Of a stretch of DNA of 64,000 nucleotides, positions 24-63,573 are shown in pieces. A program made the position numbers and the translations under genes. A model generated the notes under the pieces. It was not told the DNA's origin. It saw only the letters and a list, made by a program, of their open reading frames with translations, and searched no databases. Location: contig JBAZGN010000002.1 in the NCBI GenBank assembly GCA_041652815.1, positions 174,261 to 238,260 on the forward strand, written 5' to 3'. How positions within the stretch are numbered: the first letter of the stretch is position 1; the number at the start of each line of letters is the position of its first letter. Source of the DNA: Candidatus Omnitrophota bacterium (GTDB lineage Bacteria > Omnitrophota > Gorgyraeia > Duberdicusellales > 4484-171).

Positions 24-92
24 CGAATTTACCCCGCCCTTTCTTACCTATGAATATTTTATTTTAAGGTATGAAAGGGCGGGGTTCAATTC
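24..92. repeat. Family C hairpin element, copy 1 (CCCCGCCCTTTC ... GAAAGGGCGGGG)
   Basis: 12-bp GC-rich stem with an AT-rich structured loop. Upstream of PilZ gene 1. Confidence 0.8.
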
Positions 93-157
93 CGACACAC
101 AAGTTATGTTCGCCTACGGCTGCCATAACTTGTGTCATCATTGAACGGAGGTGCGTT

Positions 158-2501: not shown

Positions 2502-2506
2502 GTTTA

Positions 2507-2613
2507 TAGTTACGAATGTTATGAAAGTTACGCAGGTTACGAAGGTTACAATAAAACACGCGATTCAAGGGTAACTTTCGTAACCCCCGTAACATCCGTA
2601 ACCTTCGTAACCT
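2507..2613. repeat. Family A inverted-repeat element, copy 1 (tandem GTTACGnAG 9-mers and complementary arm), between oppA and oppB
   Basis: gttacgaatgttatgaaagttacgcaggttacgaaggttac...gtaactttcgtaacccccgtaacatccgtaaccttcgtaacc. Confidence 0.85.
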
Positions 2614-2636
2614 AAAATTGGACAGTTGCAGTTACA

Positions 2637-5584: not shown

Positions 5585-5603
5585 TCCCCTATTGATTAAT
5601 TTC

Positions 5604-5712
5604 AGGTTACGAACGTTACGAAGGTTACGCAGGTTACGAAGGTTACCATAAATCACGAGGTTTTTAATGTAACCTCCGTAACTTTCGTAACTTCCCGTAA
5701 CCTTCGTAACCT
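5604..5712. repeat. Family A element, copy 2, between oppD and oppF
   Basis: Near-identical arms to copy 1. Confidence 0.85.
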
Positions 5713-5744
5713 AAATATATGATTTGTGTTTGGGTGTATAAAAT

Positions 5745-7741: not shown

Positions 7742-7947
7742 ACGCAGATTAGCACAGATTTGTAAACGAATGATTACAGATAATATTCGTCAAACGGTTA
7801 CGGTTGCGCTGCTCGTTTCGTCTTACGGTTACGTTTTACGTATGACGCAACCGATACGAGCCGCGTAACCGATAGACGCAAGACGATACGCTAAATCTGC
7901 GATTGTCTGTTTTGTAATCTGTGATCATCTGTGTGTAAGAGAGGAGG
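7742..7947. repeat. Composite element: family F arms (CACAGAT ... ATCTGTG) enclosing a nested family G palindrome (CGGTTACGG.../...CCGTAACCG). 3' end is TAA plus GGAGG
   Basis: Outer arms at 7742-7790 and 7894-7947. Inner palindrome at about 7795-7880. Confidence 0.7.
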
Positions 7948-7952
7948 AATGT

Positions 7953-8132
7953 ATGAAATTTATAATCTTTAGCATGATAACATTTTTTTTAATGGCATGT
8001 GAGCCTGTCCACAAAGCTGCTCAAGAAGTAGGTAAACCTGTTGGCGCAGCTACTAAAGCAGTGGGTGGTGTTACTGAGGGAGCTGCCGAAGGCTACAGCG
8101 ACAAACAAACCGAAAACCCTTACAACAGATAA
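7953..8132 (+). CDS. Small (59 aa) putative lipoprotein, Gly/Ala-rich, below the ORF-track size cutoff
   Basis: GAGGAGG RBS 6 nt upstream. Signal-like N-terminus MKFIIFSMITFFLMAC with a candidate lipobox Cys. Hand-translated. Confidence 0.35.
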   Translation: MKFIIFSMITFFLMACEPVHKAAQEVGKPVGAATKAVGGVTEGAAEGYSDKQTENPYNR

Positions 8133-10208: not shown

Positions 10209-10352
10209 AATAAATAACCAAGATACAAGAAACAATAACCAAACAATAAACAATATTCAAATTCCAATAACCAAACAAAACTCAATCTTCCCGTTTGGTC
10301 ATTGGTCATTGGATATTGGAATTTGTTTGTATCTTGTATCTTGGTTATTGGT
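10209..10352. repeat. Family B inverted-repeat element, copy 1 (AATAACCAAGATACAAG...CTTGTATCTTGGTTATTGG)
   Basis: About 145 bp imperfect palindrome built from 7-mer units. Confidence 0.8.
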
Positions 10353-10399
10353 TATTTAATTGATATGTCAAACATAACTGTAACCTATGAAAGAATAGC

Positions 10400-27705: not shown

Positions 27706-27790
27706 GATGACCCAAAGGGTCATCCTGAAGCCCGAAGGGCTGAAGGATCATAAGATCCTTCGTCGCTTCGTTCCTCAGGATGAGATGGTT
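27706..27790. repeat. Family H palindromic module (GAAGCCCGAAGGGCTGAAGGATC...GATCCTTCGTCGCTTCGTTCCTCAGGATGA), copy 1
   Basis: Shared almost verbatim with 62003-62115. Confidence 0.75.
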
Positions 27791-27852: not shown

Positions 27853-27914
27853 ACAGATGAAAATATCTGTGATCATCTGTGTCTGCCATCTGTGATTATC
27901 TGTGTGTAAAGGAG
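27853..27914. repeat. Family F element immediately upstream of fusA, ending ...ATCTGTGTGTAAAGGAG
   Basis: acagatgaaaatatctgtgatcatctgtgtctgccatctgtgattatctgtgtgtaaaggag. Confidence 0.7.
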
Positions 27915-34755: not shown

Positions 34756-34982
34756 CTCCTTCGCCCTTCGGTAAGCAAAACGCCGGTTGTGCTTCGGAGA
34801 ATGAACTTCCGTAATTTTCTTAAATGAGCCACGTCATTTATTTTGAATAGGTTCATTTTTCTTGCCTTATTTCAAACCAGTTAGCAACAATCAAACAATT
34901 TCTTTTAAAATATCAAAATTATTAGTATAATAAATGAGGCAGCTTAATTTTCTATGCCTCTGGCATAGAAAATTAACGTAGC

Positions 34983-35050
34983 CGAATTTACCCCGCCCTT
35001 TCATACCTTGAATAAGTTATTCATGGGTAAGAAAGGGCGGGGTTTAATTC
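34983..35050. repeat. Family C hairpin element, copy 2, upstream of the NYN gene
   Basis: gaatttaccccgccctttcataccttgaataagttattcatgggtaagaaagggcggggtttaattc. Confidence 0.8.
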
Positions 35051-35118
35051 GCACTAGTATTTTTTCTTCGCCACTTTGGCTCGAAAAAATACTGTGCTCA
35101 TTAAAAAAGGAGTACCAA

Positions 35119-39194: not shown

Positions 39195-39380
39195 ATTGAT
39201 TTGACCTATTCGACAGGCTCAGGGTCAATCCTGACCCTGAGTAAGCTTCAGGATTTTTGGTCCGAAGCGCATCGAACGGATTGATTTTAACTCCATAGAA
39301 TAAGTGAGTCAAACGATTTATTGATGAACAGATAATTTACTGCTGCCTTAAGGCAGCAGTAAATTATAGCGAAGCGTCTG
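39195..39380. repeat. Multi-hairpin block with CCTTAAGG-loop hairpin (ttactgctgccttaaggcagcagtaa) and ctcagggtcaatcctgaccctgag
   Basis: Two perfect hairpins read directly. Confidence 0.6.
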
Positions 39381-39448
39381 TGAATTAACCCCGCCCCTTC
39401 ACGCTTTGAATAAGTTATTCATAGGTAAGAAAGGGCGGGGTTAATTTG
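39381..39448. repeat. Family C hairpin element, copy 3
   Basis: Same loop ttgaataagttattcat as copy 2. Confidence 0.8.
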
Positions 39449-39532
39449 GCTATGCAATCCAGCACTCAGAAAACTGAGAGCTGGATTGCTGCCTCATTAA
39501 CTTTCTGGTATAATTAAAAAATCTGTATATTT

Positions 39533-43396: not shown

Positions 43397-43577
43397 ATAC
43401 TTGCACAGATGGCCACAGATTGTAAATCACAGATGGTCGCAGATGAGAAATTACAAGTACCAAATTCCAAACCTAAAGAATTTCGGACACTGGAATTTGG
43501 TACTTGGTGTTTAGAATTTCATAATATCTGTGATCATCCGTTTTGTAATCTGTGGTCATCTGTGTAACAAACAGGAG
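43396..43577. repeat. Composite family F element with a nested ACCAAATTCC...GGAATTTGGT palindrome, ending ...CATCTGTGTAACAAACAGGAG upstream of the DUF1211 gene
   Basis: cacagatggccacagattgtaaatcacagatggtcgcagatg ... atatctgtgatcatccgttttgtaatctgtggtcatctgtgtaa. Confidence 0.7.
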
Positions 43578-43584
43578 AAAAACA

Positions 43585-44202
43585 ATGAATAAAGAATCTA
43601 CCAGAATGAGCGTTGGGCGCATAGTTTCACTTGCGGACGGTATTTTTGCTATCGCCATGACTCTCTTAGTCGTAACCATTGATATTCCTAAAAAAGGCCA
43701 GATGATTTCCACGGAGGGCTTGCATAGATTTATATTCGAACAATACCACGAAATCCTTAACTATATTTTAAGCTTTATCCTTTTAGCAGCGTTTTGGACA
43801 ATACACCACCAGCAATTTCATTATATAAAACACACCGACAGCAAACATCTTTGGATAAATATAATGATTTTTATGTCTATTACTCTTACGCCATTTGTTA
43901 CCTCTTTGGCTGGAGATTTTCCCGATGATTTAGTGGCTCAGCTATTTTTCCATTTTAATATGCTTGCGATGGGCATACTATTTTACCTGAATTGGTTTTA
44001 TGCTACAAAAGACAAATGTTTAGTTGAAAGCGCATTAGAAGAGGGGGAGATAACAATTGAAAAGAAAAAACTTTTAATTATCCCTTGTGCTGCCTGCTTA
44101 GCAATTATAATTTCATTTATACGCCCCCGCGTATCTGCGTATCTGTATTTATTGATTCCGGTTATATTGTCTCTAAAAAGGTTTAATATTAAAGAAGATT
44201 AA
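43585..44202 (+). CDS. DUF1211 / TMEM175-like potassium channel family protein
   Basis: RIVSLADGIFAIAMTLLVVTI matches the DUF1211 signature RxxxFSDGVFAIAITLLV. Confidence 0.65.
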   Translation: MNKESTRMSVGRIVSLADGIFAIAMTLLVVTIDIPKKGQMISTEGLHRFIFEQYHEILNYILSFILLAAFWTIHHQQFHYIKHTDSKHLWINIMIFMSITLTPFVTSLAGDFPDDLVAQLFFHFNMLAMGILFYLNWFYATKDKCLVESALEEGEITIEKKKLLIIPCAACLAIIISFIRPRVSAYLYLLIPVILSLKRFNIKED

Positions 44203-49120: not shown

Positions 49121-49861
49121 ATGGTTACTATAAAAGTAGAAAATCTTACCAAAAAATTCGGGGCTTTAACTGCTCTTGATAAACTAAATCTTGAAGTGCA
49201 GGAAGGGGAAATTTTCGGTTTAGTCGGCCCTGACGGCGCAGGCAAAACGACAACGATGCGGTTATTAACAGGCATTTTGGATCCTACAGAAGGGCAAGCT
49301 TGGGTTTACAATAAGCATACGGTAAAAGAAGCGGAAAAATTAAAAGAGTATATAGCCTATATGTCTCAACGGTTTGGGCTTTATGAAGAGTTGAGCGTTA
49401 TGGAGAATATCAATTTTTACGCCGATGTTTATGGGGTCGCCAAAGAAAACCGCCATGAAGCTATTGAACGCTTACTTGGTTTTTCCGGATTACTGCCTTT
49501 CAAGCAGCGTTTTGCAGGCAAACTATCCGGAGGTATGAAGCAAAAATTAGGTTTAGCCTGCGCACTTATTCATACACCGCGCGTTCTTTTTTTGGATGAA
49601 CCTACAAACGGAGTGGATCCGGTGTCCCGAAGAGACTTTTGGAATATACTTTACGATTTACTTAAGGAAAAAGTCACAATATTCTGTTCTACTTGTTATC
49701 TTGACGAAGCTGAACGTTGTGCAAGAGTCGGCTTAATGCATAAGGGTAAACTGTTACGCTGCGATTCACCTGAGAGAATAAAAAAAGAGTGCAACGCTAA
49801 AACTCTCGAAGAAGCGTTTATTAAGATAATTAAAGAATATGAGAAAGAATCTGAAAAATAA
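49121..49861 (+). CDS. ABC transporter ATP-binding protein (YbhF-like, first cassette)
   Basis: Walker A GPDGAGKTT and LSGGMKQK. Upstream TTG start is rejected because it lies in a repeat. Confidence 0.8.
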   Translation: MVTIKVENLTKKFGALTALDKLNLEVQEGEIFGLVGPDGAGKTTTMRLLTGILDPTEGQAWVYNKHTVKEAEKLKEYIAYMSQRFGLYEELSVMENINFYADVYGVAKENRHEAIERLLGFSGLLPFKQRFAGKLSGGMKQKLGLACALIHTPRVLFLDEPTNGVDPVSRRDFWNILYDLLKEKVTIFCSTCYLDEAERCARVGLMHKGKLLRCDSPERIKKECNAKTLEEAFIKIIKEYEKESEK

Positions 49862-50003
49862 CCAAGCTCCAAGATACAATAACCAAACAATGACCAATAA
49901 TCAAATTCCAATAACCAAACGAAAAAGAACAAAACTGTTTGGTCATTGGTTATTGGATATTGGAATTTGTTTGTATCTTGTATCTTGGTTATTGGTTATT
50001 TAA
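49862..50003. repeat. Family B element, copy 3, between the two ABC ATPase genes
   Basis: ccaagatacaataaccaaac...ttggtcattggttattgg...cttgtatcttggttattggttatt. Confidence 0.8.
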
Positions 50004-53526: not shown

Positions 53527-54165
53527 GTGGTTGACCAAAATAAACTACCAGTGCAAGAGCCAATATTTTTTAACCAAATAAATGTTGATTTACCTTTAGA
53601 AAATATCTATAAGCGCCTTGGTTATAGAAGTGGCGCAACAATACTTTCTAAGCCGCAGAAAAAAGAAACAGAAAAAATAATTAATGACGCTTTACCGTTT
53701 ATAGAACTCCGCGGCGGCGCGGTAATTGAACCAGTTCAGAAAAAAAATGAAATAATATCCATAGGAGGTATTTCGATAGCCAGCAGGCTTTTATGCTCTT
53801 TACTCAAAGAAAGCGATGAAGTTCTTTTGTGCGCGGCAACAGCAGGAGAAAAAATAATAAAAGAAATAAAGGAATGCGGAAAAAGTGATTTAACACGTGC
53901 AGTCATATTTGATGCCGCAGCCAGTGAGATAGTGGACGCTTGTTTTGAATGGATAATAAATTATTATAACCGGCAATTGCAAAGGATAGATAAGCGCCTT
54001 ACGGATAAACGTATCTCCTGTGGGTTTGCTGATTTTGCAATAGAAAACCAGAAAAAAATTTATGATTTGCTTAAACTTAAAAAAATCGGCATAAACATTA
54101 CGCAGCAGTTCATGCTTATTCCGGAAAAGTCAGCGACTGCGGTGTTGGGGGTAATAAATATTTAG
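53527..54165 (+). CDS. Stand-alone methionine-synthase activation (AdoMet-binding) domain-like protein
   Basis: C-terminal FMLIPEKSATAVLGV aligns with the MetH activation-domain block FAMWPGASVSGW. Directly upstream of the MetH core. Confidence 0.5.
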   Translation: MVDQNKLPVQEPIFFNQINVDLPLENIYKRLGYRSGATILSKPQKKETEKIINDALPFIELRGGAVIEPVQKKNEIISIGGISIASRLLCSLLKESDEVLLCAATAGEKIIKEIKECGKSDLTRAVIFDAAASEIVDACFEWIINYYNRQLQRIDKRLTDKRISCGFADFAIENQKKIYDLLKLKKIGINITQQFMLIPEKSATAVLGVINI

Positions 54166-54271
54166 GTTACGAATGTTACGCAGGTTACGTAGGTTACGAA
54201 GGTTACAATAAACTTACGTGTTTTAAATGTAACTTCCGTAACTTTCGTAACACCCGTAACCTTCGTAACCT
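54165..54271. repeat. Family A element, copy 3, between metH-activation gene and metH core
   Basis: Near-identical arms to copies 1 and 2. Confidence 0.85.
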
Positions 54272-54302
54272 AACTCGATAGTTATGATACATATAAGAAT
54301 CT

Positions 54303-56729
54303 ATGAACGCTAAAGAAAAAATAAAGCGCCTTTTAAAAAAGCGAGTGGTTATCCTTGATGGAGCAATGGGTACACAGCTTCATAAGTATGGGATGCCGCA
54401 AGGAATACTACCTGAAATCTGGGCTTTAGAAAATCCTAGAATACTAAAACAGATTCACAGGCAATACCGGCAAGCCGGTTCGGATATTATTTACACTGCG
54501 ACGTTCGGCGCTAACCGGATTAAACTTGGGAACCAAAAAATAAAAAATGTAAAACAAATAAACAAAGATTTATGTTTATTGGCTAAAGAAGCTGCAGGAA
54601 AAAATTGCTTTGTTGCCGGTGACATTGGCCCCTTAGGTGTATTTATTGAGCCTTTTGGCGAACTTCCTTTTGAAGAAGCAGTTGATATTTTCAAAGAACA
54701 AGTGCGCTCTCAACTTTTAGCAGGAGTTGATTTATTCGTTATAGAAACAATGATGGATATACAGGAAGCCCGTGCAGCTCTTATTGCAGTAAGAGAGTTT
54801 TGCGATAAATTTACAATTGTTACGATGACATATGAGGCGAGCGGCCGAACCTTAAACGGAACAAGCCCGCAGGCAGCATTGATTACACTTCAAAGCTTAG
54901 GCGCAGATTGTGTTGGCGCGAATTGTTCAACGGGCCCGGTTGATATGCTTAAAATTGTCAAAAGCCTTAAACCATACGCAACAGTGCCGCTTGCAGTTAA
55001 ACCTAATGCCGGAATGCCTGAACTTGTTTTTGGGCAGGCTCATTTTAGTATGCAGCCACGGGATTTTGGTGTATTTGCGGAAAAATTCGCATCTTACGGC
55101 GTAAATATGTTAGGCGGTTGCTGCGGAACAACCCCAGAACATATACGTGAAGCTAAAATCAAGATAGGCAACAAAAAACCAATTGCGCCGCATAAAAAAC
55201 AATTGAGTGCTTTAAGCTCGGCAAGGAGCGCTTTGATTTTAGAAAAACAAAAAGATGTGTTAATCGTGGGGGAAAGTATAAACCCGACAGGAAAACCCGC
55301 CTTTCAGCAGGAATTAAAAAAAGGTAAAATGGCTTCGGTAGTAAGATTGGCAAATGAGCAAAAACAAAATGGCGCCAACCTGTTAGACGTAAACGTAAGC
55401 GTGCCGCAAGCCAATGAGGAAAAATTGATGATGGAGGCAATTTCCGTGCTTTCTAAGATTACGAATTTGCCTTTAGTGATTGATTCTCCAAATGTAAAAG
55501 TAATTGAAAGAGCGCTTAGGTTTTATCCCGGCCGCGCGCTTATAAATTCAATTTCAGAAGACCCCGTCAAGCTTAAGCCCCTGCTTAATTTAGCAAAAAA
55601 ATACGGCGCGATGTTTATAGTCTTGCCTGTAGCGGGACGCGCTATTCCTAAAAATATTGCCGAACGTAAAAATATAATAAAGAAAATCTTCAATGAAGCG
55701 AAAAAATCAGGTTTTTACAAAGAAGATTTGATTGTGGATTGTCTGGTGCTGACTGTTTCTTCGAAGCCGCAGGCAGCGCAGGATGTTTTAAAGACAATAT
55801 CCTGGTGCAAAAAAATTTTTAAAGCTAATACTATAATTGGCCTTTCAAACATTTCTTTTGGCCTGCCAAAAAGAGATATCGTAAATACAACTTTTCTAAA
55901 TATGGCAAAGGGCCGGGGGCTTTCTCTTGCCATAGCTAATCCTTTGCAAAAGAAAAATTTCATTGATTTAAGGGCAAAAGCGCTTTTGCTAAACAAAAAA
56001 AACGCAGCCGCCAACTTTATAAATTGTTATTCCGGAAAGGCAGACAGCGGAATCAAATACCGCAAACATAAAAAGTTTTCCCCGGAAGAAGAAATATATA
56101 AGGCAGTAATTGAAGGCAACAAGCAGGACATAGCTGTATTTATACGTAATATCTTGAAAGAAGGAAAAAAGCCATTGTCTATAATGCAGGATATTTTAAT
56201 ACCGGCCATCATTAAGGTTGGCGACCTTTTTGAGAAAAAAGAATATTTTCTTCCCCAGCTTATCGCCAGCGCCGAAGCTATGAAACTAGGCACGCAAGTG
56301 CTGCTTCCTTACATCAAAAGAAAAGGCGGAGAAAAGAAGAAAGCAATCGTTATACTTGCAACAGTTGAGGGAGACGTCCACGATATAGGTAAAAACATAG
56401 TTTCGCTTTTACTGGAAAACCACGGATTTAAAATAATTGATTTAGGAAAAGACGTTTCGGCGCAAAAAATAATTCAGGCCATAAAAGTACATAAACCGGA
56501 CATAGTCGGTTTATCTGCTTTAATGACAACCACAATGGTTAATATGAAAAAAGTAATAGAGTTGGCAAAAAGGGAAGGATTAAAGTGCGAATTTATGATT
56601 GGCGGAGCAGTGGTTACAAAGCATTTCGCCGATTCAATAGATGCTGCCTACGCAAAAGACGGAGTTAGTGCCGTGCGCGTTGCGCAAAACTTGTCGTCAA
56701 ACACCTATCTACCATCCGCAACCTCGTAG
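54303..56729 (+). CDS. metH: Cobalamin-dependent methionine synthase core (Hcy-, folate-, B12-binding domains; lacks activation domain)
   Basis: LDGAMGTQL (Hcy domain), pterin-binding region, and the DxHxxG B12 motif GDVHDIGKN. 808 aa. Confidence 0.85.
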   Translation: MNAKEKIKRLLKKRVVILDGAMGTQLHKYGMPQGILPEIWALENPRILKQIHRQYRQAGSDIIYTATFGANRIKLGNQKIKNVKQINKDLCLLAKEAAGKNCFVAGDIGPLGVFIEPFGELPFEEAVDIFKEQVRSQLLAGVDLFVIETMMDIQEARAALIAVREFCDKFTIVTMTYEASGRTLNGTSPQAALITLQSLGADCVGANCSTGPVDMLKIVKSLKPYATVPLAVKPNAGMPELVFGQAHFSMQPRDFGVFAEKFASYGVNMLGGCCGTTPEHIREAKIKIGNKKPIAPHKKQLSALSSARSALILEKQKDVLIVGESINPTGKPAFQQELKKGKMASVVRLANEQKQNGANLLDVNVSVPQANEEKLMMEAISVLSKITNLPLVIDSPNVKVIERALRFYPGRALINSISEDPVKLKPLLNLAKKYGAMFIVLPVAGRAIPKNIAERKNIIKKIFNEAKKSGFYKEDLIVDCLVLTVSSKPQAAQDVLKTISWCKKIFKANTIIGLSNISFGLPKRDIVNTTFLNMAKGRGLSLAIANPLQKKNFIDLRAKALLLNKKNAAANFINCYSGKADSGIKYRKHKKFSPEEEIYKAVIEGNKQDIAVFIRNILKEGKKPLSIMQDILIPAIIKVGDLFEKKEYFLPQLIASAEAMKLGTQVLLPYIKRKGGEKKKAIVILATVEGDVHDIGKNIVSLLLENHGFKIIDLGKDVSAQKIIQAIKVHKPDIVGLSALMTTTMVNMKKVIELAKREGLKCEFMIGGAVVTKHFADSIDAAYAKDGVSAVRVAQNLSSNTYLPSATS

Positions 56730-57447
56730 GTTGCGGATGGTAGATGTATAACTAATATGTTAATTACCGGAGAAGTATATCATACTTTAAATAGAAGTAT
56801 TGTTGATTTTAAAATATTCAACAACATTTCAGATTTTTCGCGGATGAGAGAAGTTCTCTGGTATTATCAATTTGAAAAACTCCCCATAAGTTTTAGCAAA
56901 TTTAACGAATTGGCGACCGACAAAGCAGTTTCTTTTCGAAACGAAATTTCTAGCGGAGTAGATAGCAAGCTTATTGAAATAATTGCTTGGTGCCTTATGC
57001 CTACGCATGTTCACTTAGTATTGAAACAATTAAAAGATAATGGGATTTCAAAATTCATGAGTAATATTCTTAACAGTTATAGCAGGTATTTTAATATTAA
57101 ACATAACAGGAAAGGTCCATTGTGGGAAGGCCGGTTCAAAAAAGTTCTGGTCAAAAGTGATGAACAGCTTTTACATCTGACAAGATATATTCATTTAAAT
57201 CCAGTTACCGCATCTTTGGTAAATAATCCAGAGGATTGGTTTGCTTCGTCTTATAAAGGGTATGTTGGTTTAGATTTAAATGAAAATAATTTATGTTGCT
57301 ACCATAACATTATTGATATTAAACCTGCAACATACAAAAAATTTGTAGAGGATAGGATTTCTTATCAAAGAGAACTTGAAAAAATAAAGCATTTGATTTC
57401 CGAGGAAGCGTAATTTAACCATCCGCAACCTCGTAGGTTGCGGATGG
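56712..57447 (+). mobile_element. REPtron-like unit: RAYT gene bracketed by two identical 29-nt perfect palindromes
   Basis: CCATCCGCAACCTCGTAGGTTGCGGATGG at about 56712-56740 and again at 57419-57447. Confidence 0.7.
56757..57413 (+). CDS. IS200/IS605-like Y1 (HUH) transposase, REP-associated tyrosine transposase (RAYT)-like
   Basis: EVYHTLNRS, HUH motif PTHVHLV and catalytic-Tyr region RYIHLNPV. Confidence 0.8.
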   Translation: MLITGEVYHTLNRSIVDFKIFNNISDFSRMREVLWYYQFEKLPISFSKFNELATDKAVSFRNEISSGVDSKLIEIIAWCLMPTHVHLVLKQLKDNGISKFMSNILNSYSRYFNIKHNRKGPLWEGRFKKVLVKSDEQLLHLTRYIHLNPVTASLVNNPEDWFASSYKGYVGLDLNENNLCCYHNIIDIKPATYKKFVEDRISYQRELEKIKHLISEEA

Positions 57448-57454
57448 TTAAAGA

Positions 57455-58180
57455 ATGATGGGTATGCCTATCTATAAGATAAAAGAAGAGTTAAGGAAAA
57501 ATAGCAATAAAGAAAAAGCAAGAATACTTCAGGGTTTTTTTAAAACTGCCCCCGGCGAATACGGATACGGTGATGTATTTATCGGGGTATGCGTGCCGCA
57601 TATCAGGAAAATTGCAAAAAAATATAAAGAAATAAGTTTAAATTCTATCCGCAAGCTGTTAACATCACGCATACATGAAGAGAGGTTGATTGCGCTTATT
57701 ATTCTTGTTTTAAAATTCGATGAGGCAGATACAGCCGATAGAAAAAAGATTTATGAGCTTTATCTGAAAAACACAGAATACATAAACAACTGGGATTTGG
57801 TTGATTTGACCGCTCCGAATATCGTAGGCAAATTTTTGGCAAATGCAGATAAAAAAATTTTGTATAACCTTGCAAAGTCGAAATCTTTATGGGAAAGAAG
57901 GATTTCGATAGTTTCAACTTTCAATTTTATAAGAAACAATTCTTTTTCCGATACTATTAAAATAGCAAGATTGCTTTTGGCAGATAAAGAAGACTTAATC
58001 CATAAAGCTTGCGGTTGGATGCTGCGCGAGGTTGCCAAAAGAGATAAAACTCTGGTGGACGATTTTTTATCTGAACATCACAAAGATATGCCGCGGGTTA
58101 TGCTTAGGTATACTATAGAAAGATTTCCGGAAAAAGAAAGAAAAGATTATCTTAAAAGCAAAATCGTACACATTTTATGA
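57455..58180 (+). CDS. DNA alkylation repair protein (AlkC/AlkD HEAT-like repeat family)
   Basis: N-terminal pattern ...KARILQGFFKT..GEYGYGDVFIGV..P.IRKIAK typical of PF08713. Confidence 0.7.
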   Translation: MMGMPIYKIKEELRKNSNKEKARILQGFFKTAPGEYGYGDVFIGVCVPHIRKIAKKYKEISLNSIRKLLTSRIHEERLIALIILVLKFDEADTADRKKIYELYLKNTEYINNWDLVDLTAPNIVGKFLANADKKILYNLAKSKSLWERRISIVSTFNFIRNNSFSDTIKIARLLLADKEDLIHKACGWMLREVAKRDKTLVDDFLSEHHKDMPRVMLRYTIERFPEKERKDYLKSKIVHIL

Positions 58181-58289: not shown

Positions 58290-59075
58290 ATGTTAGCGCT
58301 AAGGAGGACGTATACGAATAAAAGAATTAATTATCTGCAAAAAAATTTAAGGATTACTTTGCTAATAATTAGTTTATTTTTCCTTTGTGCAACATTCCTG
58401 GTTTCTTCGGTTTTTACCGAAGACGAAGATATCGGCATTCGTTTTCGCGACGGCAGCACAAATGTCCCTATTGCTGTTTGTTCACCTACCAGTGTGTGTC
58501 CATGCACCTCGGCGCTAATGGTTCGTAAAGGTGATAGGAATTATCATATAAATCTTGTAAATACTGGCGATGCTTTGGCGACTAAGATGAGGGTGCAAAC
58601 TCCTGGCGGAGCAACGAGAGCGGCAAAGAGATTTACTCCCCCTGTTGCTAGTGGTAGTTTTACACGTGAAAGTGCTTCGCCTAAGTTTGGTAAAACATGG
58701 GTAGCTTCAATTACCTGTGGTTGCGTCGATGGCACTCAAAGAACAATAGGAACTCGTAGTGATGGTAAGTCATACCCTATAGATGTTACAGCGGCAGTTT
58801 GGAATGCTATTGATACCAAGCACTTAAACATAACTAAACCAAGCGATTATGAACCTATTCTACGCTCAACAGGAGCTTGCGGAAGGGAACCGTTTACCTG
58901 GTATGATAATGGCGGCACCGAGCAAACTGTAGCACTTACAGCTATATGCAGGATACTTGGGTATGATTCTTATATTTCATCCACGTGTCGGGATGAACAA
59001 AGAAGTTTTCCATATACCCAAGGTAAATGTAACTTTCACAGCCATCCTGGTGATCACATGTATCGTTTCCAGTGA
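58290..59075 (+). CDS. Secreted Cys-rich hypothetical protein (261 aa) in a GC-rich islet
   Basis: N-terminal TM/signal, about 14 Cys. Local GC is visibly higher than the flanks. Confidence 0.4.
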   Translation: MLALRRTYTNKRINYLQKNLRITLLIISLFFLCATFLVSSVFTEDEDIGIRFRDGSTNVPIAVCSPTSVCPCTSALMVRKGDRNYHINLVNTGDALATKMRVQTPGGATRAAKRFTPPVASGSFTRESASPKFGKTWVASITCGCVDGTQRTIGTRSDGKSYPIDVTAAVWNAIDTKHLNITKPSDYEPILRSTGACGREPFTWYDNGGTEQTVALTAICRILGYDSYISSTCRDEQRSFPYTQGKCNFHSHPGDHMYRFQ

Positions 59076-59236
59076 TCTAAACATTTAATTTGCTGGTAGA
59101 GCTGTACGATATAAAATCCTAATGATTGTTGGAATAGATATTCGGATTTTTCATATATTCACGGCTAAAAATCGCGTCTTAGGAAGAGAACTATTTGTTA
59201 ATTTTTCAAAGAAAGCTATAATAATATATACGAAAA

Positions 59237-60022
59237 TTGCTAATCTTTTTATATTTTAGGAGGTGTAAGATGGCGACAATTTTTAAATCTTTTCGTAAAA
59301 TTAGTTTTTTATTTATAGTGATTTCCTTTTCTTTTGTCTCTCAGGTTTTTTCTCAGCAGGCAGAAACTGTAACCATTACTACTTATTATCCTGCCCCAAT
59401 GGGAGTGTATGAAAACTTAAGGCTTTTCCCTATCGCTGCTGCGCAGTCTCCTGTTTGCAACGCAAATCAAGAAGGTACGATGTATTACAATAACGATGCC
59501 GGTGAAAATCGGCTGATGGTTTGCAGGGAAACCGCTACGGGTTTTGATTGGGAAGCGGTTGGCGCCAGTTTCTGGACGCAACCCGCCGGAACCGTTTTCC
59601 TTCATACTAATGATGTTAACTGGAATGTAGGTGTTGGTACGGTAGCCCCGGCGAGAAAAATGGAAGTCGCAGACACGGGAACCACGGATCTCGATAGCAT
59701 TAGGGTAACTAGAGAGAATCACAGCGCGGGCATCGGCATCGATCGTAACGGTACATTCTGGGGCACTGGAATCTACCAAGATGGTGTGGAGAGGCTTGTT
59801 CTTGATTCCAACTTTGGTGTCTTAATTGGACAGACCTATCTTGCTGGTAATCCGCCCAACAATGGCCTTCTTGTGGAAGGCAATGTCGGCATTGGAACAA
59901 CGACTCCAGATGGAAGATTGGATGTTGAGGGCGGAACAACCTATCTTGAGAGGCTGGTAATTCGTCCCAGAGCGGGAACCCCGAGCGGCGTTCAAAATGG
60001 AGAGATATGGATTGTTCAATAA
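59237..60022 (+). CDS. Secreted hypothetical protein (261 aa) with Gly/Thr-rich beta-repeat motifs
   Basis: Signal peptide and a good RBS (AGGAGG). Motifs such as NVGIGTTTPDGRLDVEG. Confidence 0.4.
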   Translation: MLIFLYFRRCKMATIFKSFRKISFLFIVISFSFVSQVFSQQAETVTITTYYPAPMGVYENLRLFPIAAAQSPVCNANQEGTMYYNNDAGENRLMVCRETATGFDWEAVGASFWTQPAGTVFLHTNDVNWNVGVGTVAPARKMEVADTGTTDLDSIRVTRENHSAGIGIDRNGTFWGTGIYQDGVERLVLDSNFGVLIGQTYLAGNPPNNGLLVEGNVGIGTTTPDGRLDVEGGTTYLERLVIRPRAGTPSGVQNGEIWIVQ

Positions 60023-61065: not shown

Positions 61066-61548
61066 ATGAAACGCAAACTTCCGCATAAAAAATATATGCA
61101 GCTTGCAATTTGCGAAGCAAGGAAGAATCTCAGTAAGGTTTGCGGTGGCCCCTTTGGCGCTTGTATAGCAAAGGGGAATAAAGTCATTGCCATAGCCCGC
61201 AACACAGTTTTAAAGAATGATGCCAGCTGTCATGCCGAGATAAATGCCATACGCCTTGCATCGAAAAAACTTAGAACCCATGATCTTTCCGGATGCCGGA
61301 TTTATTCAACTACCGAGCCGTGCCCGATGTGTTTTGCTGCATGCCATTGGGCGAGGATTGGTTCAATAATTTATGGCAACAATATTAGCGATGCAAAGAA
61401 AATAGGTTTCAACGAGCTTTCTATTTCTAACGTTTCAATGAAAAAAATCGGTAAAGCCAAAATCAAAGTTATCCGCGGCGTTTTGCGTAACGATTGTAAC
61501 CGCTTATTTCGCGAGTGGTCAGCGCTTCCTAACAAGCAGTTATACTAA
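61066..61548 (+). CDS. guaD: Guanine deaminase, GuaD type (CDA fold)
   Basis: GGPFGACIAKG...CHAEINAIR...YSTTEPCPMCFAACHWARI closely parallels B. subtilis GuaD blocks (GGPFGAVIVKDG...HAEVTAIR...YTSCEPCPMCLGAIYWAR). Confidence 0.7.
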   Translation: MKRKLPHKKYMQLAICEARKNLSKVCGGPFGACIAKGNKVIAIARNTVLKNDASCHAEINAIRLASKKLRTHDLSGCRIYSTTEPCPMCFAACHWARIGSIIYGNNISDAKKIGFNELSISNVSMKKIGKAKIKVIRGVLRNDCNRLFREWSALPNKQLY

Positions 61549-61561
61549 TTTTTAGTATTTT

Positions 61562-61903
61562 ATGGCGAGAGAGAACTTTAAGAAAAACATAATTGTGAAG
61601 GTTTTGAATACGGCAAACTCAATAGCTTACGAGAAAAATTCTATTGTCAGTAATACAATAGTTAAAAAGAAAAGCGGGACAATTACACTGTTTTCCTTCG
61701 ATTGCGGGCAGGGGTTAAGCGAACATACTGCCCCGTTTGATGCCTTAATTTATATTATTGAAGGCCGTGCCAGGATTTATATTGCCAAGAAGCCTTACAA
61801 GGTTTCAAAGGACAAGATGATTATTTTACCCGCCAACAAACCCCACGCAGTAAAAGCCATCACAAAATTTAAAATGATGCTGGTAATGATTAAATCCAAA
61901 TAG
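61562..61903 (+). CDS. Cupin-domain protein
   Basis: 113 aa. Cupin motif region G..SEH....FDALIYIIEGRARI. Confidence 0.5.
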   Translation: MARENFKKNIIVKVLNTANSIAYEKNSIVSNTIVKKKSGTITLFSFDCGQGLSEHTAPFDALIYIIEGRARIYIAKKPYKVSKDKMIILPANKPHAVKAITKFKMMLVMIKSK

Positions 61904-61987
61904 GCGGAATTTCCAAGCCAAAATCTGTATCTTGCTTCTTTGTGCCCTGATTTAATTTGACATATATAGGTATATTATATATAATCT

Positions 61988-62115
61988 GAGAGGTCGACAG
62001 GTTGTCGACCTCTCATCCCGAAGCCCGAAGGGCTGAAGGATCTAATTAGATCCTTCGTCGCTTCGCTCCTCAGGATGACCCCCTTGCTAATAGAAGAACT
62101 TACCGAGGGGTCATA
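61988..62115. repeat. Family H module, copy 2, plus adjacent hairpin TGAGAGGTCGACAGGTTGTCGACCTCTCA, upstream of lysS
   Basis: gaagcccgaagggctgaaggatctaattagatccttcgtcgcttcgctcctcaggatga. Confidence 0.75.
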
Positions 62116-62127
62116 TAATCTATCAAT

Positions 62128-63573
62128 ATGAGCCGCGAAAAATTAGACAAAATCAGCGCAAATTTCGGTTATCCTTTCCTGGAAACAGCCTTTGATAAGC
62201 CTTTGAGTATCAAGGGAATACTTGATGCTTTTGAGGAAAATAAGGTAGTTAGCATTGCTGGAAGGCTTATTACAAGAAGAGAGCACGGAAAATCCAGCTT
62301 TGCCCACATTATGGATCATACCGGAAAAATTCAGGTTTATGCCCGGTTAGACATTTTGGGCAAGTTTTATGAGCTTTTTAAGGATCTGGATATAGGCGAT
62401 ATTATCGGAGTTAAAGGTAAGCTTTTTAAAACCCACACTGGAGAATTTACTATACTTGTGGAGGAACTTAAATTACTTTCCAAAGCACTTTTGCCTTTAC
62501 CTGAAAAATGGCACGGATTACGCGACGTTGAGATACGCTATCGTCAACGTTATCTTGATCTAATTGCCAATCCGGAAGTTAAAGAAATTTTTCTGAAACG
62601 CTCGCGTATAATTTCACTTATCAGGGAGTTTTTTGATAAGTTGGATTATATGGAAGTTGAAACTCCGATGCTGCATACTATTGCCGGAGGAGCTGCGGGC
62701 AGGCCTTTTGTTACGCATCATAATGCCTTAGACTTCGACGTTTATCTAAGAATAGCTCCCGAGCTTTATCTTAAGCGCCTGCTTGTAGGTGGTTTTGAAA
62801 AGGTCTATGAGATAAACCGAAGTTTCAGAAATGAAGGAATCTCAACCAGGCATTCGCCCGAGTTTACTATGCTTGAAGCCTATTGCTGCTATAAGAATTA
62901 TGATTATATGATGAAGGTGTGCGAAGATTTGTTTTCTCTTCTTGCAAAAGCAATTAACGGAGGCTTGATTATTAATTATCAGGGAGAACAAATAGATTTT
63001 ACACCGCCCTGGCAGAGGATTTCTTTTGCTGAAGTTTTTAAAGACGAGTTTGATATTCTGCCGCAAGACAATCAGGATGTTTTTTTAAAAAAGATTACGG
63101 CAAAACTTAATTTAGGCGGTAAGGGCCTAAGCCGCAGCCAGATTTTAAATATTACCGAGGAGCTTGTTGAGAAAAAGTTTCCCAAAAATAAGCCTGCCTT
63201 CATCGTTGACTTCTTTACCTGGAATTCGCCCCTGGCCAAGAAGAAAAAGGATGACCCTTTGCTTGTTGAACGTTTCGAGCTTTTTATTGCCGGTTTAGAA
63301 GTTGCCAATGCTTATTCGGAATTGAATGACCCGATTGAACAGAGAGAGCGTTTCCAGAAGCAGATGGAAATCGAGGAAGAGCTTCCAAAGAAAATCGATA
63401 ATGATTTTCTAATGAGCCTTGAATACGCTATGCCTCCTGCCACAGGCCTTGGTATTGGCATAGACAGACTGATTATGCTTCTTCTCAATCAGCCTTCAAT
63501 AAGAGATGTGATTCTTTTCCCGTTGCTCAAGCCTCTGAACGAAGAAGACCAAGGGTCAAAAACCGAAGACTAG
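62128..63573 (+). CDS. lysS: Lysyl-tRNA synthetase, class II
   Basis: OB-fold N-domain, class II motifs (FRNEG, GLGIGIDRL), 481 aa. Confidence 0.9.
   Translation: MSREKLDKISANFGYPFLETAFDKPLSIKGILDAFEENKVVSIAGRLITRREHGKSSFAHIMDHTGKIQVYARLDILGKFYELFKDLDIGDIIGVKGKLFKTHTGEFTILVEELKLLSKALLPLPEKWHGLRDVEIRYRQRYLDLIANPEVKEIFLKRSRIISLIREFFDKLDYMEVETPMLHTIAGGAAGRPFVTHHNALDFDVYLRIAPELYLKRLLVGGFEKVYEINRSFRNEGISTRHSPEFTMLEAYCCYKNYDYMMKVCEDLFSLLAKAINGGLIINYQGEQIDFTPPWQRISFAEVFKDEFDILPQDNQDVFLKKITAKLNLGGKGLSRSQILNITEELVEKKFPKNKPAFIVDFFTWNSPLAKKKKDDPLLVERFELFIAGLEVANAYSELNDPIEQRERFQKQMEIEEELPKKIDNDFLMSLEYAMPPATGLGIGIDRLIMLLLNQPSIRDVILFPLLKPLNEEDQGSKTED

What the first reader, a model, noticed from the sequence alone, without database searches (positions are those of the whole stretch)
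56712..57447. REPtron: Y1/RAYT transposase bracketed by identical perfect 29-nt hairpins, with the left hairpin overlapping the metH stop codon
The same palindrome CCATCCGCAACC-TCGTA-GGTTGCGGATGG (12-bp stem) occurs 17 nt before the RAYT start and 6 nt after its stop. The upstream copy supplies the last codons and the TAG of metH (...L P S A T S stop). This is the canonical REP-RAYT arrangement. It places a HUH Y1 transposase in a genome whose intergenic regions are packed with other palindromic repeat families. I did not see this flanking hairpin elsewhere in the window, so it differs from the abundant families. Which element this RAYT mobilises, and whether it is active, is open.
Basis: seen in the sequence. 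Interest (0 to 1): 0.6.

Follow-up and report, generated by a model that had tools for sequence, protein, structure and literature searches.

The report
RAYT-type transposase gene between cognate hairpins
An intact, single-copy RAYT-type (domesticated IS200-like) DNA-cutting enzyme gene sits between two identical DNA hairpins inside a methionine-synthase operon of an uncultured Omnitrophota bacterium; this layout is already known, and here the hairpins are an unusual type with no other copy in about 70 kb.

Summary
The 29-mer occurs exactly twice (56712-56740 and 57419-57447). Each copy is really a perfect 18-bp stem with a 3-nt loop. The pair brackets a 218-aa ORF, and the left loop supplies the metH stop codon.

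The ORF is an intact class-2 Y1 HUH enzyme of the RAYT/TnpA_REP type. It has HVH at residues 84-86 and Tyr144 within YIHLNP, and its best solved relative is E. coli TnpA_REP.

Ten related Omnitrophota loci carry the same gene, flanked by their own version of the hairpin. Stems covary between species, while the two copies within a genome stay identical. The gene diverges at about the pace of metH. In one relative the whole hairpin-gene-hairpin unit sits three genes away and the metH junction is intact.

"Canonical REPtron" is only partly right:
- The hairpins lack the 5' GTAG foot; GTAG sits in the loop.
- The protein scores below NCBIfam's RAYT cut-off.
- No further hairpin copy exists in about 70 kb of this genome.
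- The whole genome could not be scanned.

Three relatives do have dispersed or doublet (REPIN-like) copies. Verdict: a new member of a known kind (REPtron/TIRtron-like), of modest interest.

The parts
56707..56745 (+). Left cognate hairpin: perfect 18-bp stem, 3-nt loop (ATCTACCATCCGCAACCT-CGT-AGGTTGCGGATGGTAGAT). The loop GTAG is at 56726-56729, and its TAG (56727-56729) is the metH stop codon.
56757..57413 (+). 218-aa RAYT/TnpA_REP-type Y1 HUH enzyme gene (class-2 TnpA_Y1).
   Evidence: Pfam Y1_Tnp 39.6 bits. NCBIfam REP_Tyr_transpos 71.2 bits against IS200 17.9. Best PDB match is E. coli TnpA_REP 4er8, E 7e-6. 100% identical to a protein named transposase in a Candidatus Omnitrophica MAG.
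57006..57014 (+). HUH motif codons CAT GTT CAC (H84-V85-H86), the metal-binding site of the nuclease.
   Evidence: H84 and H86 are invariant in 20 homologues and align to HMH of 4er8.
57186..57203 (+). Catalytic tyrosine motif Y144-I-H-L-N-P, matching the class-2 signature Y---NP.
   Evidence: Y144, H146, L147, N148 and P149 are invariant. The motif aligns to DYIYINP of 4er8. The signature definition comes from PMC6006769.
57414..57452 (+). Right cognate hairpin: perfect 18-bp stem, 3-nt loop (TTTAACCATCCGCAACCT-CGT-AGGTTGCGGATGGTTAAA). It starts directly after the RAYT stop codon and has the same loop orientation as the left copy.
54303..56729 (+). Upstream neighbour metH (808 aa; S-methyl_trans, Pterin_bind and two B12-binding domains). 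Its last 8-9 codons and its stop come from the flank and 5' arm of the left hairpin.
57455..58180 (+). Downstream neighbour, a DNA-alkylation-repair family gene. In relative L005, which lacks the insertion here, this gene overlaps the metH stop directly (ATGA).

Best explanation
This is a domesticated, mostly vertically inherited RAYT-type gene (class-2 Y1 HUH single-strand DNA endonuclease/ligase) together with its two cognate recognition hairpins. The compact 746-bp unit is lodged in the metH / DNA-alkylation-repair operon of an Omnitrophota genome.

Proposed mechanism (inferred from the enzyme family, not shown here):
- When the DNA is single-stranded, each palindrome folds into a hairpin. 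GC skew suggests the + strand is the lagging-strand template.
- The enzyme binds the hairpin through the conserved apical ACC/GGT pairs, the TCGTA loop and the AACC/GGTT foot.
- It cuts next to the hairpin with HUH-bound metal and Tyr144, forming a 5'-phosphotyrosine link, and it can rejoin the strands.

Over evolutionary time this activity, or recombination between the two copies, would have three effects. It keeps the two flanking hairpins identical within a genome while they drift between species together with the protein. It occasionally relocates the whole unit. In some lineages it seeds solitary or inverted-doublet (REPIN-like) copies elsewhere. In this genome the hairpin population appears minimal, with two copies in about 70 kb.

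The gene has no promoter or terminator of its own. It is probably transcribed with metH, and the hairpins also sit in the mRNA.
For: Enzyme class:
- Pfam Y1_Tnp.
- NCBIfam REP_Tyr_transpos 71 bits against IS200 18 bits, and all 20 clade members match the RAYT model.
- The best solved relative is E. coli TnpA_REP, aligned through the HUH and Tyr motifs.
- HUH and the Y---NP signature are invariant (definition in PMC6006769).

Cognate hairpins:
- All ten related loci carry hairpins of the same architecture directly before the start codon and 0-14 nt after, or overlapping, the stop codon.
- 9 of 15 stem pairs change on both sides across 8 species, with 93.7% of cells paired; 0 of 500 shuffles reach this.
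- Within each genome the left and right copies are identical, including shared mismatches: C/A in L001, two in L030, T.G in L005.

Domestication and vertical descent:
- There is one copy and no paralogue in the window.
- The gene sits at the same metH site in three species. RAYT identity is 75% and 79%, against metH 76% and 85% and the alkylation-repair gene 76%.
- Mean column identity across the clade is 67%.

Activity over time:
- In L005 the unit, with its hairpins, lies three genes downstream while metH and the alkylation-repair gene overlap cleanly.
- Extra intergenic or doublet copies occur in L027, L031 and L033, and an in-frame copy lies inside the gene in L025.

Expression and strand:
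- No promoter-like or terminator-like site lies at the hairpins.
- GC skew is positive across the whole window.
- The gene is co-oriented with the downstream gene in 8 of 8 independent contexts.
Against: - No biochemical evidence exists. Binding and cleavage are inferred from homology to E. coli, S. maltophilia and Marinomonas TnpA_REP (PMC8266576).
- The hairpins lack the 5' GTAG foot that those enzymes need.
- Four of the five residues that contact GTAG in E. coli are replaced.
- The protein is below the curated RAYT cut-off.
- No dispersed copies were found in about 70 kb of this genome, so REP mobilisation is unproven here.
- Identity of the two copies could come from ordinary gene conversion rather than from the enzyme.
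- The structure model was too poor to use (pLDDT 52).
Confidence: 0.75

Rival explanations
1. It is an autonomous IS200-like insertion sequence. The 746-bp hairpin-tnpA-hairpin unit is itself the mobile element, using the two hairpins as its left and right ends, and it simply inserted between metH and the alkylation-repair gene.
For: - The unit is compact, close in size to IS200 (size from my own knowledge), and the hairpins abut the ORF tightly.
- In L005 the unit, hairpins included, occupies a different site, and the metH junction there is clean. This is what scarless single-strand 'peel and paste' transposition would leave.
- The orientation bias relative to neighbouring genes fits strand-specific insertion.
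Against: - There is a single copy and no paralogue in 64 kb.
- Three species share the same insertion site, with divergence equal to that of housekeeping neighbours.
- The protein has the class-2 Y---NP signature rather than the class-1 motif, and it scores 17.9 bits against a cut-off of 55 on the IS200 model.
- The two ends are identical rather than distinct left and right ends with guide sequences.
- Each homologue examined recurs on different samples' contigs in the same gene context.
Confidence: 0.12
2. The hairpins act mainly at the RNA level, as processing, stability or translation-control structures. They would insulate the inserted gene within the metH operon, and their link to the enzyme's DNA activity would be secondary or lost.
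For: - Both hairpins are transcribed in the sense orientation, judging from the absence of promoter-like or terminator-like sites between the genes.
- One hairpin overlaps the metH stop and lies 11 nt before the RAYT start. The other starts right after the RAYT stop and lies just before the next gene's start.
- Published work argues that many REPs function in RNA (PMC3733652).
Against: - Relatives carry the same hairpins in both orientations, as inverted doublets, in unrelated intergenic sites and even inside the ORF. This points to DNA-level copying.
- No Rfam family matches.
- RNA function does not explain why the hairpin always travels with this gene.
Confidence: 0.08
3. It is an inert relic: a dead transposon remnant whose hairpins and ORF persist by chance.
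For: - No other hairpin copies occur in about 70 kb.
- metH has been altered by the insertion.
Against: - The ORF is intact with invariant catalytic residues. It is as conserved as metH, or more so (71% against 63% with L005).
- The hairpins are perfect and covary across species.
- More than 2600 homologues were found.
Confidence: 0.03

Closest known systems
REPtron: tnpA_REP/RAYT gene flanked by REP/BIME sequences (E. coli yafM/TnpA_REP, PDB 4ER8; Nunvar 2010 PMC2817692; Bertels & Rainey 2011 PMC3116915; PMC8266576)
   Same: - Y1 HUH enzyme with the class-2 Y---NP motif, and the best solved match.
- A single-copy gene that evolves like a housekeeping gene.
- Flanked by its own cognate palindromes, which co-evolve with it.
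- Relatives show inverted doublets (REPIN-like) and dispersed intergenic copies.
   Different: - There is no GTAG tetranucleotide 5' of the stem; GTAG is in the loop.
- Most GTAG-contact residues are replaced.
- The protein is longer (218 against 165 aa), with a conserved C-terminal extension, and scores below the NCBIfam equivalog cut-off.
- The hairpins abut the ORF tightly and are in direct orientation.
- No dispersed family is shown in this genome.
[quoted passage not shown]
TIRtron / TIRYT: RAYT-like genes flanked by non-GTAG, sometimes self-complementary repeats (Di Nocera et al. 2013, PMC3733652). Probably corresponds to subclass 2.1 of Quentin et al. 2018 and RAYT group 1 of Bertels 2017.
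   Same: - A RAYT-like enzyme, longer than RAYTs.
- The flanking repeats are not GTAG-REPs, may overlap the ORF ends, and in some genomes are not repeated anywhere else.
- Found in species that lack classical REPs.
   Different: - The shared TIR motif GGGGWSAS is absent here.
- I could not assign the protein to a published TIRYT group or to subclass 2.1, because no reference sequences were available.
- Each flank here is itself a complete hairpin rather than one arm of a long terminal inverted repeat.
IS200 and the IS200/IS605 family (class-1 TnpA_Y1)
   Same: - HUH/Tyr chemistry on folded single-stranded hairpins.
- A compact element of about 0.7 kb with a hairpin at each end.
- Scarless relocation is compatible with the L005 comparison.
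   Different: - Different Tyr motif and a very weak match to the IS200 model.
- Single copy.
- Identical ends rather than distinct ones.
- Vertical inheritance.
Subclass 2.4 TnpA_REP (RAYT group 4) with REPs inserted in frame inside tnpA_REP (PMC6006769)
   Same: Relative L025 has a partial copy of its own hairpin inside the RAYT ORF without breaking the frame.
   Different: - In L025 the insertion lies before the HUH motif, in the variable linker, not between HUH and Tyr.
- The window's own gene has no such insertion.

Membership tests
RAYT / TnpA_REP (class-2 TnpA_Y1) | HUH metal-binding motif | tested here: met
   H84-V-H86 is invariant in 20 homologues and aligned to HMH of 4er8.
RAYT / TnpA_REP (class-2 TnpA_Y1) | Catalytic Tyr in the class-2 signature Y---NP (PMC6006769) | tested here: met
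   Y144-I-H-L-N-P is invariant. The definition was read.
RAYT / TnpA_REP (class-2 TnpA_Y1) | Reaches the curated NCBIfam REP_Tyr_transpos equivalog cut-off (80 bits) | tested here: not met
   The window protein scores 71.2 bits. All 20 clade members match the model; the best E-value among them is 2.1e-20, and per-member bit scores were not returned.
RAYT / TnpA_REP (class-2 TnpA_Y1) | Closer to TnpA_REP than to IS200/IS605 TnpA | tested here: met
   4er8 E 7e-6 against ISDra2 TnpA E 0.09; 71.2 against 17.9 bits.
RAYT / TnpA_REP (class-2 TnpA_Y1) | Single copy per genome, inherited like a housekeeping gene | tested here: inconclusive
   There is one copy and no paralogue in 64 kb. The site is shared and divergence parallels metH in three species. 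The whole genome was not available.
REPtron | Gene flanked by its cognate palindromic repeats | tested here: met
   Identical hairpins lie on both sides. The same architecture is found in ten related loci, with covarying stems.
REPtron | The flanking palindrome belongs to a dispersed multi-copy extragenic family (REP) in the same genome | tested here: inconclusive
   There are 0 further copies in about 70 kb. The source genome is absent from genome contigs and metagenome contigs, and all hits there are unrelated GC-rich hairpins with other loops. Relatives L027, L031 and L033 do have extra copies.
REPtron | Conserved GTAG tetranucleotide 5' of the stem (guide/foot) | tested here: not met
   The 5' foot is (T)AACC. 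GTAG lies at the loop/3'-stem junction in 7 of 10 species. The left copy's CTAC...GTAG is inside the stem, in reversed order, and is not conserved.
REPtron | Residues that contact GTAG in E. coli TnpA_REP (W94, Q95, E100, H101, R104; PMC6006769) | tested here: not met
   The alignment gives W, E, K, V, K at these positions; only W is kept.
TIRtron / TIRYT | RAYT-like gene flanked by repeats that are not GTAG-REPs, with a protein longer than RAYTs | tested here: met
   Non-GTAG-footed palindromes lie on both sides. The protein is 218 aa with a conserved C-terminal region at residues 165-218. The definition is in PMC3733652.
TIRtron / TIRYT | GGGGWSAS motif shared by one set of TIRs | tested here: not met
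   The motif is absent from the window hairpins and from the relatives' hairpins, by inspection.
IS200/IS605 insertion sequence | Class-1 TnpA reaching the NCBIfam transpos_IS200 cut-off (55 bits) | tested here: not met
   17.9 bits. The Tyr motif is Y---NP, which is not the class-1 type.
IS200/IS605 insertion sequence | Several near-identical copies per genome | tested here: inconclusive
   One copy in 64 kb. The genome-wide count could not be obtained.
IS200/IS605 insertion sequence | Distinct left-end and right-end subterminal hairpins with guide tetranucleotides | tested here: not met
   The two ends share an identical 31-nt core.

The most novel reading that the evidence does not exclude
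In this Omnitrophota clade the hairpin-RAYT-hairpin unit may be a self-relocating cassette. The enzyme would cut at its two identical, same-strand hairpins and move itself scarlessly between operons, while staying single-copy and vertically inherited for long periods. This would contradict the current view that REPtrons do not transpose as a unit. It would also give a natural intermediate between IS200 and fully domesticated RAYTs, using a non-GTAG, loop-read hairpin code.
Probability: 0.2. Interest if true: 0.55.

Novelty: new member of a known kind. Interest (0 to 1): 0.3.

Why it matters
It extends the RAYT/REPtron picture to Omnitrophota, an uncultured phylum in which I found no paper describing such elements.

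The example is unusually clean. A tight gene-plus-two-hairpins unit is conserved across many species, with clear stem covariation, within-genome homogenisation of the two copies, and one apparent relocation of the whole unit.

The clade could be a tractable system for two questions: how class-2 Y1 enzymes read hairpins that lack the GTAG foot, and whether such units can still move.

For genome annotation, the practical points are that this metH has a hairpin-derived C-terminal tail and stop codon, and that the gene labelled 'transposase' is probably not an active IS.

Tried and rejected
1. Genome-wide hairpin count. The source genome is in neither collection, so these scans say nothing about its copy number.

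2. Walking off the window with the last two contig look-ups gained only about 6.6 kb on the right and nothing on the left. No further copy was found.

3. The viral-contig scan for relatives found none.

4. The AlphaFold2 model from the 20-sequence alignment was poor (mean pLDDT 52). I ran no fold search and draw no structural claim from it.

5. Rfam gave no family at gathering threshold in the window, and only chance-level hits at the hairpins.

6. Terminator reading of the hairpins: rejected, because no T-run follows either stem and the scan does not call them.

7. CTAC/GTAG in the left copy as the REP guide: rejected, because it is absent from the right copy and from relatives.

8. Possible link between the RAYT hairpin and the window's 9-nt-unit palindromic arrays, which share CGTAGGTT once: noted but not supported by any test.

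9. metH and the RAYT ORF share a reading frame, separated only by the loop TAG. I considered a read-through fusion, but the frame relation is not conserved in L001, so it is probably chance.
Full report
**1. The observation**

The 29-mer CCATCCGCAACCTCGTAGGTTGCGGATGG is present exactly twice on the + strand, at 56712-56740 and 57419-57447. There is no third copy in the window even with three mismatches, and none is expected by chance. Searches with one arm at two mismatches, and with all flanking 12-mers at one mismatch, found only chance-level matches elsewhere.

Both are perfect 18-bp stems with a 3-nt loop, at 56707-56745 and 57414-57452. The core shared by the two copies is 31 nt. The outer four base pairs differ (ATCT/AGAT against TTTA/TAAA) yet stay complementary in both. 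As single-stranded DNA each folds at about -21 kcal/mol, roughly ten standard deviations below shuffled controls, on either strand.

The hairpins bracket an ORF at 56757-57413 (218 aa). The left one lies 11 nt before the ATG, counted from the full stem. The right one begins on the base after the TAA.

metH (54303-56729; four Pfam domains) ends at the TAG inside the left loop. Relatives end metH at ...LAAK* or ...LSKK* before the hairpin. This metH therefore lost its own stop and reads 8-9 extra codons (…NTYLPSATS*) into the hairpin.

The same sequence is found in independent JGI and ENA assemblies.

**2. The protein**

- Pfam assigns Y1_Tnp (39.6 bits).
- NCBIfam gives REP_Tyr_transpos at 71.2 bits, below its 80-bit cut-off, and the IS200 model at only 17.9 bits.
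- All 20 clade members tested match the RAYT model.
- The best solved relative is E. coli TnpA_REP (4er8, E 7e-6), aligned across both catalytic motifs. ISDra2 TnpA reaches only E about 0.09.
- In an alignment of 20 homologues, H84, H86 (HVH), Y144 and the following H-L-N-P are invariant, and mean column identity is 67%.
- Y144-IHL-NP matches the class-2 TnpA_Y1 signature Y---NP of Quentin et al. (PMC6006769).
- Of the five E. coli residues reported to contact the GTAG guide, only the tryptophan is kept (alignment).
- No paralogue exists in the window.
- An AlphaFold2 model was too poor to use.

**3. Relatives**

The protein search found more than 2600 homologues. Those that carry a source name are nearly all labelled Omnitrophota/Omnitrophica. 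The best 120 are 56-100% identical. I read the context of ten distinct loci.

Every one has hairpins of the same design hard against the gene: (TT)AACC, 6-8 variable bases, [A/C]ACC, a 5-nt loop (usually TCGTA or GCGTA), then the complement.

Across eight species, 9 of 15 stem pairs change on both sides while 93.7% of cells stay paired. No shuffle of 500 and no slid register comes close. The apical ACC/GGT pairs are invariant.

Within each genome the two copies are identical even in their imperfections: a C/A mismatch in L001, two mismatches in L030, a T.G pair in L005. The copies therefore evolve in concert.

Arrangements vary between loci:
- direct orientation in the window, L001, L030 and L005;
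- inverted orientation in L025;
- inverted doublets that look like REPINs on both sides in L033 and upstream in L032;
- a tandemly duplicated loop module in L031.

**4. Inheritance and movement**

The window, L001-L004 and L030 share the same site, with the RAYT between metH and the DNA-alkylation-repair gene. RAYT identity between them (75% and 79%) tracks metH (76% and 85%) and the alkylation-repair gene (76%). This is what vertical descent under purifying selection predicts.

In L005 metH and the alkylation-repair gene overlap directly (ATGA) with no trace of a hairpin. The hairpin-gene-hairpin unit lies three genes downstream instead. There the RAYT is 71% identical to the window's, against 63% for metH. 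So the whole unit has occupied different sites within one syntenic block.

Other relatives carry it next to ligA, uvrB, mnmG/gidA and other housekeeping genes. It is co-oriented with the downstream gene in all eight independent contexts.

**5. Is there a dispersed family?**

In this genome I found none. There are zero extra copies in the other 63 kb of the window and in 6.6 kb beyond it.

They returned only unrelated GC-rich hairpins with different loops in other organisms. The source genome is not in those collections, so the genome-wide count remains unknown. With zero in about 70 kb, a density above roughly one per 23 kb is unlikely, but tens of copies per genome cannot be excluded.

Relatives give a different picture. 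An intergenic copy in opposite orientation lies 5.8 kb away in L027. A doublet-like copy lies 3.9 kb away, and another 150 nt upstream, in L031. A full inverted doublet lies 2 kb away in L033. A partial copy sits in frame inside the gene in L025. DNA-level copying of these hairpins therefore does occur in the clade, at low density.

**6. Expression context**

Neither hairpin is followed by a T-run, and the scan calls no terminator or promoter at them. The gene is most simply read as co-transcribed with metH and the alkylation-repair gene. No Rfam family matches.

GC skew is positive along the whole window. The + strand, which carries the TCGTA loops, probably has the sequence of the lagging-strand template. 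That is the strand on which Y1 enzymes are known to act (PMC6006769 abstract). This step is inference.

**7. Explanation and comparison**

The best-supported reading is a domesticated RAYT-type enzyme with its cognate hairpins. By analogy with TnpA_REP (PMC8266576), the enzyme binds the folded single-stranded hairpin and cuts and rejoins DNA beside it, using the HUH motif and Tyr144.

What is shown:
- an intact catalytic core;
- cognate, covarying, homogenised hairpins;
- housekeeping-like inheritance;
- at least one relocation of the unit;
- sporadic extra copies in relatives.

What is inferred: the binding, the cleavage, and that the enzyme is the agent of homogenisation and copying.

The element works like a REPtron but fails two defining REP features: the 5' GTAG foot, and a demonstrated dispersed family in this genome. 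It also misses the curated RAYT score. It fits equally well the published looser categories: class-2 genes flanked by 'atypical secondary structures' (PMC6006769), and 'TIRtrons/TIRYTs', whose flanking repeats may be self-complementary, may overlap the ORF ends, and are sometimes not repeated elsewhere (PMC3733652). In-frame repeat insertion in the gene is also already described for subclass 2.4.

The rivals are less likely. These are an active IS200-like element, RNA-level hairpins, and a dead relic. The reasons are given with each rival.

**8. Verdict**

This is a new member of a known kind.

The one feature that could raise its interest is the evidence that the whole unit has moved while staying single-copy. 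This runs against the usual statement that REPtrons do not transpose as a unit. It rests on one comparison and needs whole-genome and read-level tests.

Noticed in passing
window 2505-2616, 5603-5715, 54163-54274: Three copies of a palindromic element of about 115 nt. Each has five tandem 9-nt units (G)GTTACGNA, a spacer of about 20 nt, then five inverse units. There are 21 matches to GGTTACGNAGGTTAC against 0.15 expected. All three are intergenic; one lies directly upstream of metH. One unit shares CGTAGGTT with the RAYT hairpin apex, which may be chance. Relatives L001 and L030 have no such array before metH.
   Followed up: partly
window 26-94, 34984-35052, 39382-39450: A 69-nt palindromic repeat family (…TTAACCCCGCCC[C/T]TTC…GAAAGGGCGGGGTTAA…) with TTAACC/GGTTAA-like feet resembling those of the RAYT hairpins. 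Two copies sit just after another perfect hairpin (34944-34976 and 39332-39367). Whether the RAYT acts on this family is untested.
   Followed up: no
window 27720-27783 and 62013-62078: Two copies of an imperfect palindrome of about 64 nt (TCATCC[C/T]GAAGCCCGAAGGGCTGAAGGATC … GATCCTTCGTCGCTTCG.TCCTCAGGATGA). The second lies between a cupin gene and lysS.
   Followed up: no
window 10212-10359 and 49856-50003; also 7895-7968, 27865-27914, 43526-43599: Two further repeats. One is a 148-nt direct repeat, 89% identical, with copies 39.6 kb apart. The other is a family of ATCTGTGATCATCTGTG motifs just upstream of start codons. Both are unexplained.
   Followed up: no
window 56707-56710 / 56742-56745 against 57414-57417 / 57449-57452: The four outermost stem pairs differ between the two hairpin copies but are complementary in each (ATCT/AGAT, TTTA/TAAA). 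The right-hand form matches the clade's usual TTAACC...GGTTAA foot. The left-hand form looks like three compensated changes, with a chance of about 0.5% for four pairs at this base composition (my estimate). Hairpin-templated correction (template switching) or selection for the stem could explain it.
   Followed up: partly
window 54303-57413: metH and the RAYT ORF are in the same reading frame, separated only by the loop TAG and nine sense codons. The frame relation is not conserved in L001, so it is probably chance.
   Followed up: partly
L025 5384-5415 (also L026 695-726): A partial copy of this relative's own hairpin (AACCATTTCCCACC-GCGTA-GGTGGGAAG) lies inside its RAYT ORF, in frame (…NNHFPPRRWEESGK…). 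It sits in the variable linker before the HUH motif. In the same locus the downstream hairpin is inverted relative to the upstream one.
   Followed up: partly
L033 2717-2770, 3439-3497, 5431-5497; L032 9905-9960: REPIN-like inverted doublets of the short hairpin (for example TTGGCAACC-TCGTA-GGTTGCCA-TTC-TGGCAACC-TACGA-GGTTGCCAA) flank the RAYT on both sides, and a third lies 2 kb away inside a called TPR gene. The doublet can also be read as GTAG-[GTTGCCA-TTC-TGGCAAC]-CTAC, which is the canonical 'double-foot' REP layout.
   Followed up: partly
L027 4205-4239; L031 6058-6103 and 9848-9878: Dispersed intergenic copies of the relatives' RAYT-flanking hairpins lie 3.9-5.8 kb from the gene. The L027 copy has the opposite loop orientation. 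In L027 the upstream and downstream flanking hairpins are of two different sequence types.
   Followed up: partly
window 53527-54165: A 212-aa ORF just upstream of metH has a weak, sub-threshold match to the methionine synthase activation domain (Met_synt_B12, 18.8 bits against a cut-off of 25). This suggests that the reactivation module of MetH is encoded separately in this lineage. The same 204-aa gene precedes metH in L001 and L030.
   Followed up: no
L006 3342-3370 and L010-L023: The same 10-12-bp stem sequence (ATCCGCAACC/GGTTGCGGAT) recurs with unrelated loops in GC-rich genomes of other phyla, without a Y1 gene in L006, the only one of these loci whose ORFs I listed. In the Victivallales contig it lies in the 133-nt gap between two same-strand ORFs. 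These look like coincidental stem-loops, not relatives.
   Followed up: yes
window 58290-60022 and 61066-63573: Synteny with relatives (metH, alkylation repair, YqeY, dCMP-type deaminase, lysS) is kept. It is interrupted in this genome by two 261-aa ORFs of unknown function (58290-59075 and 59237-60022) directly after the alkylation-repair gene.
   Followed up: no
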